Source of the DNA: an uncultured Rickettsiales bacterium | Lineage (GTDB): Bacteria; Pseudomonadota; Alphaproteobacteria; Rs-D84 | NCBI GenBank assembly: GCA_900546225.1 | Contig: URBZ01000002.1 | Coordinates: 78,411-142,410, forward strand | Length of the DNA: 64,000 nt | Reading direction: 5' to 3' | Shown: in pieces, positions 15,753-60,837 of the stretch | Numbering within the stretch: the first letter of the stretch is position 1 | Layout: each line of letters begins with the position of its first letter | The notes under the pieces: model-generated | The model's database searches: none | What the model saw: only the letters and a program-made list of their open reading frames with translations | What the model was told of the DNA's origin: nothing | Translations under genes and position numbers: made by a program

Positions 15753-16122
15753 AATGATTATGCTCTTTTGTTAGTTTTAAGTAAAAATCTGGATAACCAT
15801 TACCCAGACATATTTACACTAAATCATTTTTAGATGGGAAACACAACCTATTTTAGCATTTAGGGAAATTTTGCACAGAAAAGCGCATCAATTTGTCAAC
15901 ATATAGACGCGATTTTGTAAAAACACACCTATATTTTGTATTTTTTGCGTTTTACGAATCGTTTTCTGGCGCGTTTTGGTCAAATTATTGACACAAAAAC
16001 ATATTTAGTATTCCGATTCGAGGAATCGGTCACAGCGCAAACGTACGGAAAACCCGCCTTTTGAAAAGTAAAGTAAAAAATGAAAAATTTTTTCTGTTTT
16101 ACGTGTTGATAGGAAACCTATA

Positions 16123-16170
16123 AAACTATATATTGGTATCAAATAAACAAAATAACCACTAGATATTGTG
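16123..16170 (+). promoter_or_regulatory. two candidate NrdR boxes (AAACTATATATTGGTA and ACCACTAGATATTGTG), 32 bp apart, upstream of nrdD
   Basis: Imperfect 16-bp palindromes resembling the acaCwAtATaTwGtgt consensus, separated by three helical turns, 26 bp before the nrdD ATG. Confidence 0.3.
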
Positions 16171-16195
16171 TTTTTACAAAACAAGGGACAGAAAG

Positions 16196-18238
16196 ATGTC
16201 TGATGCAGAAAACGAAACAAAAATTCAGGTTATTCCAACGCTGACGACCAAATTGGTCGCGGTACAAAAGCGCGGTGGCGAAACTGTCCCGTTCGATTCC
16301 AAAAAGATATTTGATGCAATTAAAAAGGCCGTTGCGGTCACGGGTGAAATATCTGATGCGGACGTGGCAACAATTACCCAAAACGTTTTGAACACGTTGG
16401 ACGCCAAGTTCACAGACCGTGTGCCATCGGTTGAACAGATTCAGGAAACCGTGATTCAGGCACTGATGGATGCCAAGGCGTACAAGACCGCAGAATCATA
16501 TATCATATATCGCCAGAAACGCAGCGAAATTCGCGATTCATACGTTGATGCCGTAGAGGTGATTGAGGGTTACGTTGGCGGGTCAAACTGGCGCATCAAG
16601 GAAAATGCAAATGTTGGCTATTCCATTGGTGGGTTGATTTTGCGTACCAGTGAACGCGTAACGGCGGAATACTGGCTGAACCTGTATCCACGTGAAATTG
16701 CAGAGGCCCACAAAAACGCATCTATTCACATTCACGATTTGGGCTGGCTGACGGGTTATTGTGCGGGCTGGTCGTTGCGTGAATTGTTGTACGAGGGGTT
16801 CAATGGTGTTCCGGGGTATTTGCAATGCGAACCGGCGAAACATATGGCGACCGCGATTTCGCATATGGTGAATTTCTTGGGTACATTACAGAATGAATTT
16901 GCGGGTGCACAGGCATTTTCGTCCGTGGACACGTATCTGGCACCATACGTCAGAATTGATAATCTGACATATGCCGATGTTAAAAACGCAATGCAGACGT
17001 TGATATTTAACTGTGCTGTGCCATGTCGTTGGGGTACGCAGACACCATTTATCAACTTTACATTCGATTGGACATGTCCAAAGGATTTGCGTGATCAGCA
17101 TCCATTTATTGGTAAAAAACAGGTTGATTTTACATATGGTGACCTGCAAAACGAAATGGACACAATCAACAAGGCGTTCTTGGAGGTTATGACCGAAGGT
17201 GACGCGTTGGGTCGTCCGTTTACGTTCCCAATTCCAACATATAACATTACCGACGATTTCCCATGGGAACACCCAAATGTCAAACCTTTGTTTGATTTGG
17301 CGGCAAAATACGGGATTCCAAATTTCCAGAATTTCTTAAATTCTGACCTGAATCCGACCGACGTGCGTTCTATGTGTTGCCGTCTGCGTTTGGACGTGCG
17401 CGAATTGTTAAAGCGCGGTGGTGGCCTGTTTGGGTCGGCGGAAAAGACCGGTTCAATCGGTGTTGTTACAATCAATTTGGCGCGATTGGGCTATGTACAT
17501 CGTGGCGATCGCGACGGGCTGTTCCGTGAACTGAAACGTTTGCTGGACATGGGTCGTGATTCACTGGAAATCAAGCGCAAGATTATTACCAAGAATATGG
17601 AACGCGGACTGTATCCGTTCACACGCCGTTACTTGGGCAACTGGGATCATCACTTTTCAACCATTGGCGTAAATGGTGCGAATGAAATGGTTCGCAACTT
17701 TACAGGCGACCGCGAAAACATCGCAACCCCAATGGGCAAGAAATTGGTTCTGGACGTGATGGATTTCATTCGTGAAAATCTGGCAAATTTCCAAGAACAA
17801 ACAGGCAACCTGTATAATTTGGAAGCCACCCCAGCCGAGGGTTGTTCATATCGCTTTGCCAAGACCGATGTGAAAAATTTCCCAGACATCATCACGGCGG
17901 GTACACATGATGCACCATACTATACCAATTCGACACAGTTGCCGGTGAACTTTACAGATGACCCATTTGTCGCGTTGGAACACCAAGAAGAATTACAGCG
18001 CAAATATACTGGTGGCACGATGTTGCACCTGTATATGGGCGAACCTGTATCCAGTGGCGAAGCCGCCCAGAAAATCGTACGTACAATCTTTGAAAACTAC
18101 AAGATTCCGTACATGACATTGACACCGACATTCTCGATTTGCCCGAAACACGGGTATTTGCCGGGGCGTCATGAATTCTGTCCGAAATGCGACGCAGAAG
18201 TTGTCGCAAATCAGAACTGTGAATGTAATCACGAATAA
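16196..18238 (+). CDS. nrdD: anaerobic ribonucleoside-triphosphate reductase (class III RNR) large subunit; appears to end after the Zn-ribbon, before the glycyl-radical motif
   Basis: N-terminal ATP-cone (VAVQKRGGETVPFDSKKI). Catalytic-domain motifs CCRLRLD and GSIGVVTINLARLG. C-terminal CPKH...CPKC...NCEC. Start moved to ATG 16196 (RBS AAGGGA). Confidence 0.85.
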   Translation: MSDAENETKIQVIPTLTTKLVAVQKRGGETVPFDSKKIFDAIKKAVAVTGEISDADVATITQNVLNTLDAKFTDRVPSVEQIQETVIQALMDAKAYKTAESYIIYRQKRSEIRDSYVDAVEVIEGYVGGSNWRIKENANVGYSIGGLILRTSERVTAEYWLNLYPREIAEAHKNASIHIHDLGWLTGYCAGWSLRELLYEGFNGVPGYLQCEPAKHMATAISHMVNFLGTLQNEFAGAQAFSSVDTYLAPYVRIDNLTYADVKNAMQTLIFNCAVPCRWGTQTPFINFTFDWTCPKDLRDQHPFIGKKQVDFTYGDLQNEMDTINKAFLEVMTEGDALGRPFTFPIPTYNITDDFPWEHPNVKPLFDLAAKYGIPNFQNFLNSDLNPTDVRSMCCRLRLDVRELLKRGGGLFGSAEKTGSIGVVTINLARLGYVHRGDRDGLFRELKRLLDMGRDSLEIKRKIITKNMERGLYPFTRRYLGNWDHHFSTIGVNGANEMVRNFTGDRENIATPMGKKLVLDVMDFIRENLANFQEQTGNLYNLEATPAEGCSYRFAKTDVKNFPDIITAGTHDAPYYTNSTQLPVNFTDDPFVALEHQEELQRKYTGGTMLHLYMGEPVSSGEAAQKIVRTIFENYKIPYMTLTPTFSICPKHGYLPGRHEFCPKCDAEVVANQNCECNHE

Positions 18239-18270
18239 ACACGCATTGCACAAATAAAAGGAGGAAAATT

Positions 18271-18456
18271 ATGCAGGCAGCCAGCAATCAGAGAACACAA
18301 TGTGAAGTTTTCTCACGTTCTATGGGATTCATCAGACCAGTGTCCAATTTCAATATTGGTAAATACTCTGAATTTTGCGAAAGAAAAACGTTCACAGAGG
18401 CAAACAGTTTGACCACCGGTGCGCGTCACAGTGAATTGTTAAAGAAGGCCGCATAA
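18271..18456 (+). CDS. small protein resembling the detached NrdD C-terminal glycyl-radical domain
   Basis: 61 aa with a strong SD AAAGGAGGA. The segment RSMGFIRPVSNFNIGKYSEF resembles the NrdD C-terminus as I recall it (RVCGYLGSPDARPFNAGKQEE). Lies between nrdD and nrdG. Confidence 0.4.
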   Translation: MQAASNQRTQCEVFSRSMGFIRPVSNFNIGKYSEFCERKTFTEANSLTTGARHSELLKKAA

Positions 18457-18460
18457 TAAA

Positions 18461-19162
18461 ATGTCTGACATTCAAATTGGGGGTTTGGTATCGTTTACAA
18501 CAATCGATTACCCAGGGAAACTGGCCGCGGTGCTGTTCCTGCGTGGGTGTCCGTTGCGATGCGTGTACTGTTCAAATCCCCATTTGTTGAATGTTGGCGA
18601 TGGCGAATACGACCCAGACAAAGTTTTTGATTGGTTACGTAATCGCGTCGGTAAATTAGAAGCCGTCGTCTTTTCCGGCGGCGAGGCATTGATGCAGGGG
18701 GACGCGGCGATTGATTATATGCGACGTGTTCGCGATTTGGGTTTCAAAATCGGCCTGCATACAAATGGATTTTACCCCGAAAATTTGGCACGCGCCGCCG
18801 ATACAGTTGACTGGATCGGGTTGGATTATAAAACCACGCGTGATAAATATGGTGCGCTGTCGGGTCAAAATATTGCCCACGACCGCATGATTCACAGTTT
18901 GGACATATGGCAGGCGACCGGCAAGGATTATGAGGTTCGCATTACATGTGATCCACGATTTGTTTCAAAACTGGATTTAATGGAAATCACCCGCGACTTG
19001 CACAATCGTGGTGTTCCAAAAATCGCAATTCAAAAATACATTCCACATTTCGAAGATAACGAACACGGCACAACCCCTGCCCAGCGCAATCAGTTCTTTG
19101 ATGATGCGAATTTGCGCGACGTGATAAATGGAATGTTTACGTCTGTTATTTGGCGGGAATAA
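18461..19162 (+). CDS. nrdG: anaerobic ribonucleotide reductase activating protein (radical SAM)
   Basis: 233 aa; CPLRCVYC (Cx3Cx2C) cluster near the N-terminus. Confidence 0.8.
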   Translation: MSDIQIGGLVSFTTIDYPGKLAAVLFLRGCPLRCVYCSNPHLLNVGDGEYDPDKVFDWLRNRVGKLEAVVFSGGEALMQGDAAIDYMRRVRDLGFKIGLHTNGFYPENLARAADTVDWIGLDYKTTRDKYGALSGQNIAHDRMIHSLDIWQATGKDYEVRITCDPRFVSKLDLMEITRDLHNRGVPKIAIQKYIPHFEDNEHGTTPAQRNQFFDDANLRDVINGMFTSVIWRE

Positions 19163-19628
19163 CGCCCTGCTCCCCGTTCAATAATTTTTCCTTGGTTGCA
19201 ATGCCACCGGCATAGCCCGTCATTGCACCGTGCGCGCCAACAACGCGATGGCATGGGACAATAATTGAAATCGGGTTGCGACCGACCGCACCGCCAACCG
19301 CCCGCGAGGACGCGCAACCGATGCGACGGGCGATATCAGAATACGACGCACGCGCACCATATGGTATTTCACGCAATGTGCGCCACACCGCGCACTGAAA
19401 TGCCGTGCCGCGCGGTGATAATTCAAAATCAACGGCTGGGCGGCCGCCCGCAAAATATTCGTCCAGCCAACGCGACACGCGGCGCAATATTGCATTATCG
19501 CCAAATGGAATACCCGACACATCGCCGTGATGACGTTGCCCCGCAATCCACAGGCCAACCAGCGCATTGTCAGATGCGACCAATGTCAATTTACCGATTG
19601 GCGATGCGTATTCTGATTTAATCAACAT
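19146..19628 (-). CDS. ogt: methylated-DNA--protein-cysteine methyltransferase
   Basis: 160 aa; active-site PCHRVV and the C-terminal helix-turn-helix. Confidence 0.8.
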   Translation of the reverse strand: MLIKSEYASPIGKLTLVASDNALVGLWIAGQRHHGDVSGIPFGDNAILRRVSRWLDEYFAGGRPAVDFELSPRGTAFQCAVWRTLREIPYGARASYSDIARRIGCASSRAVGGAVGRNPISIIVPCHRVVGAHGAMTGYAGGIATKEKLLNGEQGVIPAK

Positions 19629-60290: not shown

Positions 60291-60369
60291 GCGCACTTGC
60301 CGATGCAGACCGCGTCGGTCTTTTTTTATTCAAACAACCGACCGACGAACAATCAACAAAGGAATAAAA

Positions 60370-60837
60370 ATGTCCAGACAAATTCAGTTTCGTCGGGGAA
60401 CCGCCGACGAACATAAAAACTTTACCGGGGCCGAGGGCGAAATAACCGTTGACCTGACCAACAAGACCCTGCGCGTGCACGATGGCGTGACCGCCGGCGG
60501 CACAATGCTGGCGCGACAAAGCGCGCTGAACGGCGCAGATTATGTCATCGCATGGCAAACGCCCACCGCCGAAAATAATTACACATGGTATCGTAAATAT
60601 AAAAGCGGCTGGGTGGAACAAGGGGGCAATTATAACCAAAGGAACACGCAAATCATACTGCCTGTAAAAATGCAAAACAATGCGTATATGGTCATGTTGT
60701 CATTCAGTACAACATCAGGCAATAATTCACAATATAACTCATTCAGTTATACAAACAAAACCTGTACTGGCTTTGTGATAAATAACAGCGGAACCGTTCT
60801 TGGCGAATGGTGCGCGTATGGTTTTTGCGAACAATAA
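60370..60837 (+). CDS. phage tail-fibre N-terminal-domain-like protein (short, 155 aa)
   Basis: MSRQIQFRRGTADEHKNFTGAEGEITVDLTNKTLRVHDGVTAGG matches the conserved tail-fibre N-terminal pattern (QxRRGTxxExxxxxxxxGExxxDxxxxxLxxxDGxTxGG). RBS AAGGA. Confidence 0.5.
   Translation: MSRQIQFRRGTADEHKNFTGAEGEITVDLTNKTLRVHDGVTAGGTMLARQSALNGADYVIAWQTPTAENNYTWYRKYKSGWVEQGGNYNQRNTQIILPVKMQNNAYMVMLSFSTTSGNNSQYNSFSYTNKTCTGFVINNSGTVLGEWCAYGFCEQ

What the first reader, a model, noticed from the sequence alone, without database searches (positions are those of the whole stretch)
18238..18460. Class III RNR with the glycyl-radical tail apparently encoded as a separate 61-aa gene
nrdD stops after a CPKH...CPKC...NCEC zinc-ribbon-like segment. 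32 nt later, behind a strong SD (AAAGGAGGA), a small ORF encodes ...QCEVFSRSMGFIRPVSNFNIGKYSEF... This resembles the extreme C-terminus of NrdD that carries the radical glycine (RVCGYLGSP...FNAGK in E. coli, from memory). A detached glycyl-radical subunit would be analogous to GrcA/YfiD for pyruvate formate-lyase.
Basis: partly seen in the sequence, partly recalled or inferred. Interest (0 to 1): 0.6.

Follow-up and report, generated by a model that had tools for sequence, protein, structure and literature searches.

The report
Two-piece anaerobic ribonucleotide reductase
In this gut bacterium the oxygen-sensitive enzyme that makes DNA building blocks is encoded in two pieces, with the glycine that should carry its radical on a separate 61-residue protein; the same layout is conserved in hundreds of related species and many phages and, as far as I could find, has not been described.

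Summary
nrdD (16196-18238) stops just after its zinc ribbon. A 32-nt spacer follows, then AAAGGAGGA, then a 61-codon ORF (18271-18456) that encodes exactly the missing end. Pfam NRDD positions 1-529 lie in the large ORF and 530-562 in the small one, including the radical glycine (Gly19, SRSMGF). nrdG starts 4 nt later.

It is not a sequencing error. The identical 61-aa protein occurs in 131 assembly blocks. All 80 inspected species genomes of Candidatus Enterousia-like gut Alphaproteobacteria (232 species matched) have the same three genes. The spacer is 20-53 nt, the reading-frame offset varies, a ribosome-binding site is always present, and dN/dS is 0.06.

Best reading: a class III reductase made of a 77-kDa core plus an obligatory 7-kDa radical-bearing subunit.

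The layout is widespread. About 80 of the 144 nearest NrdD cluster representatives end at the same point. Partner ORFs lay beside 4 of 6 inspected, and beside 18 of 21 tail-less viral NrdDs. Many phage contigs carry only the small gene.

I found no description of this. A 2026 review states that spare-part radical proteins are known only for formate lyases. No biochemistry has been done.

The parts
16106..16134 (+). sigma-70-like promoter match upstream of nrdD (TTGATA-17-TATATT)
   Evidence: Consensus scan, 10 of 12 matches. This is a pattern match only, not evidence of function.
16123..16138 (.). NrdR-box-like palindrome 1 (aaactatatattggta)
   Evidence: Read from the sequence. It is conserved at the same spacing in related species. 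The NrdR consensus was recalled from memory and not tested.
16156..16171 (.). NrdR-box-like palindrome 2 (ccactagatattgtgt)
   Evidence: Same caveat as box 1.
16196..18238 (+). nrdD core gene: 680 aa, tail-less class III RNR catalytic subunit (ATP-cone, barrel, zinc ribbon). The ORF is open from TTG 16166.
   Evidence: Pfam ATP-cone E 2.6e-21 and NRDD E 2e-170, profile 1-529 of 562. NCBIfam PRK08270 scores 1030.9 bits. Gene callers give 680 aa. The AF2 model matches class III RNR structures.
17372..17383 (+). finger-loop motif MCCR (residues 393-396), expected site of the catalytic thiyl radical
   Evidence: C395, R396 and L397 are invariant and M393 and C394 nearly invariant in alignment A3. 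It aligns to the T. maritima CCRL. The motif class is described in PMC9669993.
18140..18190 (+). zinc-ribbon segment C649-x2-H652 ... C662-x2-C665 (CPKHGYLPGRHEFCPKC)
   Evidence: It aligns to the T. maritima CEDGH...CPVC. AF2 pLDDT is 84-97. Metal binding was not tested.
18191..18238 (+). variable 15-residue tail of the core (DAEVVANQNCECNHE) plus the TAA stop
   Evidence: The tail varies in length and sequence between species, and the stop is TAA in 80 of 81 loci. AF2 pLDDT is 58-65.
18239..18270 (+). 32-nt spacer with Shine-Dalgarno AAAGGAGGA at 18257-18265
   Evidence: An SD is present in 81 of 81 related loci, and the spacer is 20-53 nt. No terminator or promoter match falls in the spacer.
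18271..18456 (+). small ORF, 61 aa: variable head (residues 1-8), Gly loop (Cys11, SRSMGF, Gly19 codon at 18325-18327), helix, and C-terminal tail TEANSLTTGARHSELLKKAA
   Evidence: NRDD profile 530-562 of 562. dN/dS is 0.06. C11, S15, R16, G19, R22, N28, G30, E34 and R38 are invariant across five independent lineages. AF2 pLDDT is 93-96 for residues 11-40.
18461..19162 (+). nrdG, radical-SAM activase (CPLRCVYC at 18548-18571)
   Evidence: TIGR02495 NrdG2, E 1.3e-51, 174.7 bits against a cut-off of 131. It is present directly downstream in 81 of 81 related loci.

Best explanation
nrdD, the 61-codon ORF and nrdG form one operon for a class III (anaerobic, glycyl-radical) ribonucleotide reductase whose catalytic subunit is made as two polypeptides.

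- The 680-aa core carries the ATP-cone, the ten-stranded barrel with the MCCR finger loop, and the zinc ribbon.
- The 61-aa protein, translated from its own strong ribosome-binding site, supplies the rest of the glycyl-radical domain. That is the buried loop with Gly19, plus the C-terminal tail that in solved NrdDs runs over the protein surface.

Inferred steps:
1. The small protein docks non-covalently, with its Gly loop inside the barrel opposite Cys394/395.
2. NrdG, with S-adenosylmethionine and a reduced flavodoxin or ferredoxin, abstracts the C-alpha hydrogen of Gly19.
3. The radical then shuttles between Gly19 of the small chain and the finger-loop cysteine of the core in each turnover.

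The small protein would therefore be an obligatory subunit, not a spare.

The break lies in the 4-6-residue connector between the zinc ribbon and the Gly loop, a permissive site that is broken in many NrdD lineages.

Why the split is kept is speculative. One possibility is that it is a tolerated product of mobile-element activity in an intein- and endonuclease-rich gene family. Another is that a detachable 7-kDa radical carrier is cheap to replace after oxygen cleaves it at the glycine.
For: Shown by sequence:
- Profile coverage of the two ORFs is complementary, 1-529 and 530-562 of 562.
- Unsplit relatives have only 4-6 residues between CPxC and EVYSRVVGY. Here 15 tail residues and about 10 head residues flank the break.
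- NrdG sits 4 nt downstream.
- No terminator or promoter match lies between the genes.

The layout is real and maintained:
- The identical 61-aa protein occurs in 131 assembly blocks with the same gene order.
- 232 GTDB species encode a relative. All 80 inspected, plus the window, have core stop, spacer, SD, ATG and nrdG.
- The frame offset is 0, 1 or 2 in 34, 28 and 19 loci. It differs even between strains whose NrdD is 99.7% identical.
- dN/dS is 0.06 with dS near 1.3-1.5, and the Gly is kept through all four codons.
- The 15 listed members of the core's 1362-member sequence cluster (40 were read) are 674-682 aa, that is tail-less.

The layout is general:
- 88 of 144 usable nearest 50%-identity representatives were scored tail-less. 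At least 6 of those are full-length proteins with long C-terminal extensions, and 2 have aberrant ends. That leaves about 80 that end at the zinc ribbon.
- Partner small ORFs with canonical RVxGY...NxGK motifs lie beside 4 of 6 inspected.
- They also lie beside 18 of 21 tail-less viral NrdDs.

Structure:
- An AF2 model of the concatenated chains has mean pLDDT 90.7.
- The junction scores low (58-65). The small-ORF core scores high (93-96), as a hairpin around Gly699 followed by a helix.
- Best structural matches are class III RNRs.

Context from the literature:
- In P. copri NrdD the glycyl-radical domain is a zinc site, then the buried Gly loop, then a surface tail. It behaves as a mobile unit (PMC11226230).
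- A split class II RNR is functional as (NrdJa-NrdJb)2 (PMC4520616).
Against: - There is no transcript, protein, EPR or activity evidence. Docking, activation and catalysis are inferred from homology.
- The AF2 model is an artificial fusion. Its alignment contains fused homologues, so the confident Gly-loop geometry is largely inherited from them and says nothing about affinity between separate chains.
- I could read only 64 kb of this genome. A second, full-length nrdD or another RNR class elsewhere cannot be excluded. None is in the window.
- A glycyl radical on a free 61-aa protein would be exposed and unstable, so tight association is required but unproven.
- The adaptive argument (a cheap replaceable part) has no direct support.
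Confidence: 0.8

Rival explanations
1. Artefact or recent pseudogene: a sequencing or assembly error, or a fresh nonsense or frameshift mutation, broke an ordinary nrdD.
For: A single stop and a 32-nt gap are what a small lesion could produce. The fragmented nrdD of Aeromonas phage phiAS4 looks like such a case (PMC3653736).
Against: The same layout occurs in 131 assembly blocks and in 80 of 80 inspected species genomes. A conserved SD and ATG precede the small ORF in 81 of 81 loci. The small ORF has dN/dS 0.06. The core's tail and the small ORF's head are added sequence, not a simple interruption.
Confidence: 0.01
2. Recoding: ribosomes join the two ORFs by stop-codon readthrough, frameshifting or bypassing, so the cell makes a normal full-length NrdD.
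For: In some strains (L001, L003-L010, L012) the ORFs are in frame, separated by one TAA and 33 nt. Translational bypassing is known in phage T4 gene 60 (my own knowledge).
Against: - The frame offset is spread over 0, 1 and 2 (34, 28 and 19 loci). It flips between near-identical strains through a 1-nt indel.
- Spacer length varies from 20 to 53 nt.
- In the window, resuming after the only GAA in the spacer that could match the last sense codon reads out of frame into a stop (read).
- In other lineages the ORFs overlap by 14 nt or lie 90 nt to 2 kb apart with genes between them.
Confidence: 0.03
3. Accessory only: the small protein is a GrcA-like spare or regulator, and the working radical domain sits on another, full-length NrdD elsewhere in the genome.
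For: I could not read the whole genome. Phage contigs carry orphan copies of the small gene with no core nearby. That is how a spare part or an add-on would look.
Against: The adjacent core has no Gly motif at all. The 15 listed members of its 1362-member cluster are 674-682 aa. The best 120 relatives of the small ORF are all short proteins, and none is the end of a full-length Enterousia NrdD. The core is conserved (82-100% identity across species) and always flanked by the small ORF and nrdG, which fits a working unit.
Confidence: 0.08
4. The core has changed function or is inactive, and the small ORF is a decoy substrate or regulator of NrdG rather than a catalytic partner.
For: Nothing specific. 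This is simply allowed by the lack of biochemistry.
Against: Hallmarks of a working NrdD are kept: ATP-cone, NAN flap motif, MCCR finger loop, zinc ribbon and many invariant barrel residues. The residues invariant in the small ORF are those of the canonical Gly loop.
Confidence: 0.03

Closest known systems
Canonical single-chain class III RNR, double-cysteine (MCCR) lineage typified by Thermotoga maritima NrdD (PDB 4COI, 4U3E), with NrdG
   Same: Same domains in the same order, same finger-loop motif, the same C-x-H...C-x2-C zinc ribbon, the same Gly-loop motif, and the same NrdG2-type activase next door.
   Different: The chain is broken between the zinc ribbon and the Gly loop. The radical glycine is on a separately translated 61-aa protein, and about 25 extra residues flank the break.
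GrcA/YfiD, the autonomous glycyl-radical 'spare part' of pyruvate formate-lyase
   Same: Both are small stand-alone proteins homologous to the radical-bearing C-terminus of a glycyl radical enzyme. Both are presumably activated by that enzyme's activase and inserted into its barrel.
   Different: GrcA belongs to the PFL family and rescues an enzyme that has its own radical domain. Here the core has none, the homology is to NrdD rather than PFL, and the gene is fixed inside the nrdDG operon. [quoted passage not shown]
Split class II RNR NrdJa/NrdJb (Pseudomonas aeruginosa; also Thermus phage phiYS40)
   Same: The RNR catalytic subunit is encoded by two consecutive ORFs, the split is conserved in a bacterial lineage, and both pieces are needed (PMC4520616, PMC3653736).
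   Different: It is a different class (B12-dependent). The detached NrdJb carries the zinc finger and the cysteine pair for re-reduction. Here the zinc ribbon stays with the core and the detached piece carries the radical itself.
'Genes in pieces' NrdA-a/NrdA-b of Aeromonas phage Aeh1, and intron- or intein-interrupted phage nrdD (T4 sunY, Lactococcus phage 949, Jug phages)
   Same: These RNR genes are interrupted in phages yet still functional. The NrdD family studied here is full of inteins. One split locus (L091) has an HNH homing endonuclease between the pieces. The Jug-phage paper notes an nrdD gap before a 91-aa fragment with no splicing evidence (PMC12880540).
   Different: The window has no mobile element, intron or intein at the break, only a 32-nt spacer with an SD. 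The break is at one conserved position and is inherited by hundreds of cellular species.
Class I RNR alpha/beta organisation
   Same: In concept, the stable radical is stored on a separate small subunit and passed to a cysteine in the catalytic subunit.
   Different: The radical chemistry is unrelated (a metallo-cofactor or tyrosyl radical on a ferritin-like protein, with long-range transfer). This is an analogy, not homology.

Membership tests
Class III ribonucleotide reductase (NrdD/NrdG) | [quoted passage not shown] | tested here: met
   PF13597 E 2e-170, PF03477 E 2.6e-21. PRK08270 scores 1030.9 bits against a cut-off of 548. Foldseek best matches are class III RNRs.
Class III ribonucleotide reductase (NrdD/NrdG) | Finger-loop cysteine motif (MGCR or MCCR) | tested here: met
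   MCCR at residues 393-396. The motif is invariant or nearly invariant in A3. Motif classes are from PMC9669993.
Class III ribonucleotide reductase (NrdD/NrdG) | Zinc-binding ribbon at the start of the glycyl-radical domain | tested here: met
   C649-x2-H652...C662-x2-C665, aligned to the T. maritima ribbon. Metal binding itself cannot be tested here.
Class III ribonucleotide reductase (NrdD/NrdG) | Radical glycine motif (RxxG[YF]...NxGK) at the C-terminus of the same polypeptide | tested here: not met
   The large ORF ends at profile position 529 of 562 without the motif. The motif is on the separate 61-aa ORF, positions 530-562. The two ORFs meet the feature only when taken together.
Class III ribonucleotide reductase (NrdD/NrdG) | Cognate radical-SAM activase NrdG with a CxxxCxxC motif | tested here: met
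   TIGR02495 NrdG2, E 1.3e-51. CPLRCVYC is at residue 30. NrdG is adjacent in 81 of 81 loci.
Class III ribonucleotide reductase (NrdD/NrdG) | Glycyl radical formation and NTP reduction | not testable with these tools
   Needs anaerobic reconstitution, EPR and an activity assay.
GrcA/YfiD autonomous glycyl radical cofactor | Small stand-alone protein homologous to the radical-bearing C-terminus of a glycyl radical enzyme | tested here: met
   61 aa with its own SD and ATG. It matches the NRDD C-terminus.
GrcA/YfiD autonomous glycyl radical cofactor | Sequence membership in the PFL-type Gly_radical family | tested here: not met
   The Pfam scan at E up to 0.1 returns only NRDD for the small ORF, with no Gly_radical hit.
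GrcA/YfiD autonomous glycyl radical cofactor | The partner enzyme keeps its own radical domain, and the small protein replaces it after oxygen damage | tested here: not met
   The adjacent core lacks the Gly loop, and the listed members of its cluster are tail-less. Whether damaged small subunits are exchanged was not testable.
Split RNR of the NrdJa/NrdJb type | Catalytic subunit encoded as two consecutive ORFs, conserved in a lineage of cellular organisms | tested here: met
   80 of 80 inspected species genomes.
Split RNR of the NrdJa/NrdJb type | Class II (B12-dependent) enzyme whose detached piece carries the zinc finger and the reducing cysteine pair | tested here: not met
   This is a class III enzyme. 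The zinc ribbon stays on the core, and the detached piece carries the Gly loop.
Intron-, intein- or homing-endonuclease-interrupted phage RNR genes | A mobile element (group I intron, intein or endonuclease gene) at the break | tested here: not met
   The spacer is 32 nt with only an SD. There is no Rfam hit in the region. The feature is met in one distant relative, L091, which has an HNH endonuclease.

The most novel reading that the evidence does not exclude
The 7-kDa radical-bearing chain is an exchangeable, consumable protein cofactor, in effect a 'GrcA for ribonucleotide reductase'. On this reading it is made from a stronger ribosome-binding site than the core, is the only part destroyed when oxygen cleaves the chain at the glycine, and is replaced without rebuilding the 77-kDa enzyme.

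Phages of these bacteria would exploit this by carrying only the small gene.
- Phage contigs hold orphan copies 65-75% identical to the window's small protein, with the same unusual SRSMG motif.
- The copies sit behind tail-fibre genes, and there is no reductase core or activase on a fully read 26.9-kb contig.
- The same phage group shares a tail-fibre module with a gene in this window.

If true, class III RNR in these lineages is a two-component radical system whose small component moves between genomes.
Probability: 0.25. Interest if true: 0.85.

Novelty: new variant of a known kind. Interest (0 to 1): 0.72.

Why it matters
Glycyl radical enzymes are taught as single chains that bury their radical glycine at their own C-terminus. 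The one known exception is the GrcA spare part of pyruvate formate-lyase.

A class III reductase whose only radical glycine lies on a separate 61-residue protein would change that picture. It would be a natural system in which the radical carrier and the catalytic barrel can be made, labelled, mutated and mixed independently. Several open questions would then become directly testable:
- how the activase reaches the glycine;
- whether activation happens on or off the barrel;
- how the domain leaves and re-enters;
- whether oxygen-damaged carriers are exchanged.

It also matters for annotation. Thousands of tail-less NrdDs and their small partners, now labelled 'hypothetical protein', would otherwise be read as broken genes. 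If no other reductase is present, the organisms concerned (small-genome gut and rumen Alphaproteobacteria) depend on this enzyme for DNA synthesis.

The phage orphans hint at a new kind of auxiliary metabolic gene.

Tried and rejected
- phmmer of the 61-aa ORF against PDB sequences found nothing, even at E 10. The ORF is too short, so the profile scans were used instead.
- The first AF2 run, with a 22-row alignment, left the junction and the small ORF at pLDDT 39-60. It was uninformative and was replaced by a 78-row run.
- tblastn of the small ORF against GenBank phages gave two hits. The one I inspected (MT835493) is an ordinary fused 802-aa NrdD. The other lies under an annotated reductase gene. 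Neither helps with split forms.
- A viral scan with the single core protein found one locus, 91% identical and probably a host fragment. An alignment was needed.
- I looked for complementary coiled-coil ends as a general 'velcro'. Only L095 shows this. For two other NrdDs with coiled-coil tails, no small ORF lay within 2.5 kb. I kept it as an anecdote.
- Translational bypass was considered and rejected, because landing at the matching GAA codon is out of frame. Readthrough and frameshifting were rejected from the frame statistics.
- A split intein or a group I intron at the break was rejected. The spacer is 32 nt, Rfam finds nothing there, and the ends carry no intein motifs.
- An inter-chain metal site built from the wandering CxC motif was rejected as essential, because many species lack the motif on both sides.
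- Six literature searches found no description of a tail-less NrdD with a separate Gly protein. The library holds only open-access papers, so this is not proof of novelty.
Full report
**1. What is in the window**

The stretch 16196-19162 (+ strand) holds three tightly packed genes.

The first is nrdD.
- The ORF is open from TTG 16166 (690 aa). The likely start is ATG 16196 (680 aa), which follows AAGGGA and is the start used by the gene callers on ten independent contigs.
- It ends ...TPTFSICPKHGYLPGRHEFCPKCDAEVVANQNCECNHE, with TAA at 18236-18238.

A 32-nt spacer follows, with AAAGGAGGA at 18257-18265, 5 nt before an ATG.

The second gene is a 61-codon ORF (18271-18456) in another frame. It encodes MQAASNQRTQCEVFSRSMGFIRPVSNFNIGKYSEFCERKTFTEANSLTTGARHSELLKKAA.

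Four nucleotides after its stop, nrdG begins (18461-19162). No terminator-like or promoter-like site separates the genes, and a promoter-like match lies at 16106-16134.

**2. The two ORFs are complementary pieces of one NrdD**

- Pfam NRDD covers profile positions 1-529 of 562 in the large ORF (E 2e-170). It covers 530-562 in the small ORF (E 8.7e-05). An ATP-cone precedes the NRDD domain.
- NCBIfam PRK08270 gives 4-655 and 649-682 of 684. The third gene is an NrdG2-type activase (TIGR02495, E 1.3e-51).
- The core keeps the MCCR finger loop (residues 393-396) and a C-x2-H...C-x2-C zinc ribbon (649-665) like that of T. maritima NrdD.
- In unsplit relatives only 4-6 residues join the last zinc cysteine to EVYSRVVGY. 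Here the core runs on for 15 variable residues, and the small protein has about 10 residues before CEVFSRSMGF.

In P. copri NrdD the glycyl-radical domain is described as a zinc site, then the buried Gly loop, then a tail across the surface (PMC11226230). On that description, the break falls inside the domain. The zinc site stays on the core, and the Gly loop and tail are on the small protein.

**3. It is not an error, a pseudogene or a recoding site**

- The identical 61-aa protein is indexed in 131 blocks of public assemblies, on contigs up to 933 kb. They come from human gut metagenomes, Hadza samples among them, and always with the same neighbours.
- A scan of one genome per GTDB species found 232 species with a relative. 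The best 80 are all Candidatus Enterousia or unnamed gut and rumen Alphaproteobacteria.
- In all 80, plus the window:
  - the core (82-100% identical) stops after CPKCDAE plus a variable tail (TAA 80 times, TAG once);
  - the spacer is 20-53 nt;
  - an SD precedes the ATG in 81 of 81 loci;
  - nrdG follows in 81 of 81 loci.
- The frame offset between the ORFs is 0, 1 or 2 in 34, 28 and 19 loci. It flips between strains whose NrdD is 99.7% identical, because the spacer is 32 or 33 nt. No conserved readthrough or frameshift can be at work.
- Pairwise dN/dS of the small ORF over 79 distinct sequences is 0.06, at dS about 1.3-1.5. The C-terminal extension is also constrained (0.09). The glycine is encoded by GGA, GGT, GGC and GGG.
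- The 120 best relatives of the small ORF are all 59-92 aa. The longer ones are gene-caller extensions into the spacer.
- The 15 listed members of the core's 1362-member cluster are 674-682 aa.
- Public records call the small protein 'hypothetical protein' (for example MBR6364231.1).

**4. The architecture is widespread**

I searched the core against 1.84 billion cluster representatives. This returned 150 relatives at 42-65% identity. Most carry inteins: 134 of 151 sequences (the 150 representatives plus the window's core) have more than 120 inserted residues.

- Of 144 usable sequences, 88 were scored tail-less. At least 6 of these are in fact full-length proteins with long C-terminal extensions, and 2 have aberrant ends. 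That leaves about 80 that end right after the zinc ribbon.
- The tails are of several kinds: CPxCDxE... (the window's clade), CPYPHTEE..., CPHCK, CPNHV, and heptad-like tails.
- A rough neighbour-joining tree with parsimony suggests 16-22 changes of state.

I looked up six tail-less representatives.

| Locus | Context | Small partner ORF |
|---|---|---|
| L093 | bacterial genome | 60 aa, 90 nt downstream |
| L094 | phage with terminase | 42 aa, 16 nt downstream |
| L095 | phage-like | 63 aa, overlapping the core by 14 nt |
| L091 | phage-like | 61 aa, after an HNH homing endonuclease and nrdG |
| L348, L349 | – | none within 2.5 kb |

Across the five independent small ORFs, C11, S15, R16, G19, R22, N28, G30, E34 and R38 are invariant.

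Viral contigs were chosen by similarity to the core. Of 80 loci, 58 NrdDs are fused and 21 are tail-less. Of the 21, 18 have a small Gly ORF 92-2064 nt downstream.

**5. Structure**

I modelled the two chains as an artificial fusion, using 78 aligned relatives. The model has mean pLDDT 90.7 and pTM 0.86.

| Region (residues of the fused chain) | pLDDT |
|---|---|
| Zinc ribbon | 84-97 |
| Core tail and small-ORF head (671-690) | 58-65 |
| Small-ORF core (691-720): strands 692-696 and 701-703 around Gly699, helix 709-717 | 93-96 |
| Last helix | 82, falling to about 60 |

The best structural matches are class III RNRs.

This fits a flexible, non-structural break beside a canonical Gly loop. But the geometry is largely inherited from fused homologues in the alignment, so it does not show that separate chains associate.

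**6. Most likely mechanism**

Shown: the gene layout, the complementarity, the conservation, the selection and the presence of the activase.

Inferred:
- The three genes are co-transcribed.
- The small protein docks its Gly loop into the barrel and lays its tail over the surface.
- NrdG generates the radical on Gly19.
- The radical passes to the finger-loop cysteine in each turnover.

So the small protein would be an obligatory subunit (confidence about 0.8).

Why the split persists is open.
- The family is full of mobile elements, and the connector is evidently a permissive site. A neutral origin is therefore plausible.
- Alternatively, a detachable 7-kDa carrier would be cheap to replace after oxygen cleavage.
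- The small ORF's SD (AAAGGAGGA) is stronger than that of the core (AAGGGA). This is compatible with an excess of carrier, but no more than that.

**7. Phage orphans (a side result)**

I searched IMG/VR with an alignment of small ORFs. This found 343 stretches. Of the best 80, 76 are stand-alone small ORFs. The search pattern required the Cys-containing motif, so the sample is biased.

With 10-kb flanks, only 11 of the 80 have an NrdD core nearby, and about 69 have neither core nor NrdG.

One group is 65-75% identical to the window's protein and shares its unusual SRSMG motif.
- These phages place the gene behind tail-fibre genes.
- I rebuilt one whole 26,902-bp contig. It has terminase, portal and tail genes, but no core or NrdG even at E 1. 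Its completeness as a genome is unproven.
- The same phages share a tail-fibre module with a gene in this window at 60367-60837: 46% amino-acid identity, E 3e-23, and 75-83% local nucleotide identity. This modestly links them to Enterousia-like hosts.

In other phages the core and the small gene can lie far apart. An unseen core therefore remains possible.

**8. What is known**

- Split RNR genes are known in phages, through introns, inteins or endonucleases. nrdD is the most often interrupted (PMC3653736).
- Aeh1 NrdA is the classic 'genes in pieces' case.
- The Jug-phage paper notes an nrdD gap before a 91-aa fragment with no splicing evidence (PMC12880540).
- A survey of insertions and extensions in 1,375 class III sequences does not mention tail-less forms (PMC9669993).
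- Six full-text searches found no description of this architecture. That is absence from an open-access library, not proof of novelty.

**9. Verdict**

The GrcA analogy should be corrected to 'obligatory subunit'.

I rate it a new variant of a known kind. It is surprising to specialists and directly testable. Its weight comes from its breadth: hundreds of cellular species and many phages. The main gaps are the total lack of biochemical evidence and the unread remainder of the genome.

Noticed in passing
window 16123-16138 and 16156-16171: Two AT-rich palindromes (aaactatatattggta, ccactagatattgtgt) lie 33 bp apart centre to centre, just upstream of nrdD. They are conserved in related species and resemble a tandem NrdR operator. 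The consensus was recalled from memory.
   Followed up: partly
window 18239-18270; L001-L012: A strain-level 1-nt indel makes the spacer 32 nt (window, L002, L011) or 33 nt (L001, L003-L010, L012). This puts the two ORFs out of frame or in frame in genomes whose NrdD is 99.6-99.7% identical.
   Followed up: yes
window 18221-18229 (NCEC); small ORFs P0009, P0030, P0068, P0075, P0086: A CxC motif wanders across the break. It sits at the end of the core in the window, at the start of the small protein in other species (MTNCECQRT..., MQTANCSCSQRT...), and is absent in many.
   Followed up: partly
window 18301-18303 (Cys11 of the small ORF); L091, L093-L095, L178-L248: A cysteine 5-9 residues before the radical glycine is present in 17 of 18 genuine stand-alone small ORFs found through core-based searches. 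It is present in only 19 of 61 fused representatives. The counts are not corrected for phylogeny. It may be a clasp or an extra metal ligand.
   Followed up: partly
L258-L337; contig IMGVR_UViG_3300021440_000101 (L345, L338, L261): Phage contigs carry orphan copies of the small glycyl-radical gene, often behind tail-fibre genes, with no NrdD core or NrdG within 10 kb. One 26.9-kb contig, read in full, has neither.
   Followed up: partly
window 60367-60837 (+): A phage tail or tail-fibre-like gene (phrog_9648, phrog_1396) shares 46% amino-acid identity (E 3e-23) and 75-83% local nucleotide identity with the tail-fibre gene that sits next to the orphan small ORF in phage L261/L262. This hints that those phages infect Enterousia-like hosts.
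   Followed up: partly
P0121-P0270 (relatives of the core): 134 of the 151 sequences analysed (the 150 nearest NrdD cluster representatives plus the window's own core) carry more than 120 inserted residues, often in several places. These are inteins. The subfamily is unusually rich in mobile elements.
   Followed up: partly
L091 5116-6177: An HNH homing endonuclease (DUF7487, phrog_3339) lies between a tail-less nrdD and nrdG in a phage-like contig, and the small Gly ORF comes after nrdG. This suggests one possible way such splits arise.
   Followed up: partly
L095 6340-6644: The core tail KDEKLHEIDKKIEKLQKELEVEDEQE and the small-ORF head MNKNKEELKKELNDLRALRQEILNG look like complementary charged helices, and the ORFs overlap by 14 nt. 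They may form a zipper that holds the two chains together. This was seen in one locus only.
   Followed up: partly
window 19146-19162: The 3' end of nrdG overlaps by 17 nt the 3' end of a convergent O6-methylguanine-DNA methyltransferase-like gene (19146-19628, minus strand).
   Followed up: no
protein-collection cluster of window 18271-18453: The 90%-identity cluster that holds the 61-aa protein also holds 233-aa NrdG sequences, and its representative is an NrdG. This looks like a clustering oddity, perhaps caused by some fused gene calls across the 4-nt gap.
   Followed up: no
L178 (IMGVR_UViG_3300029906_000277): A 23.6-kb 'viral' contig carries a core 91% identical to the window's, with the small ORF 92 nt downstream. 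It is probably a host fragment or a prophage-flanking region filed as viral.
   Followed up: no
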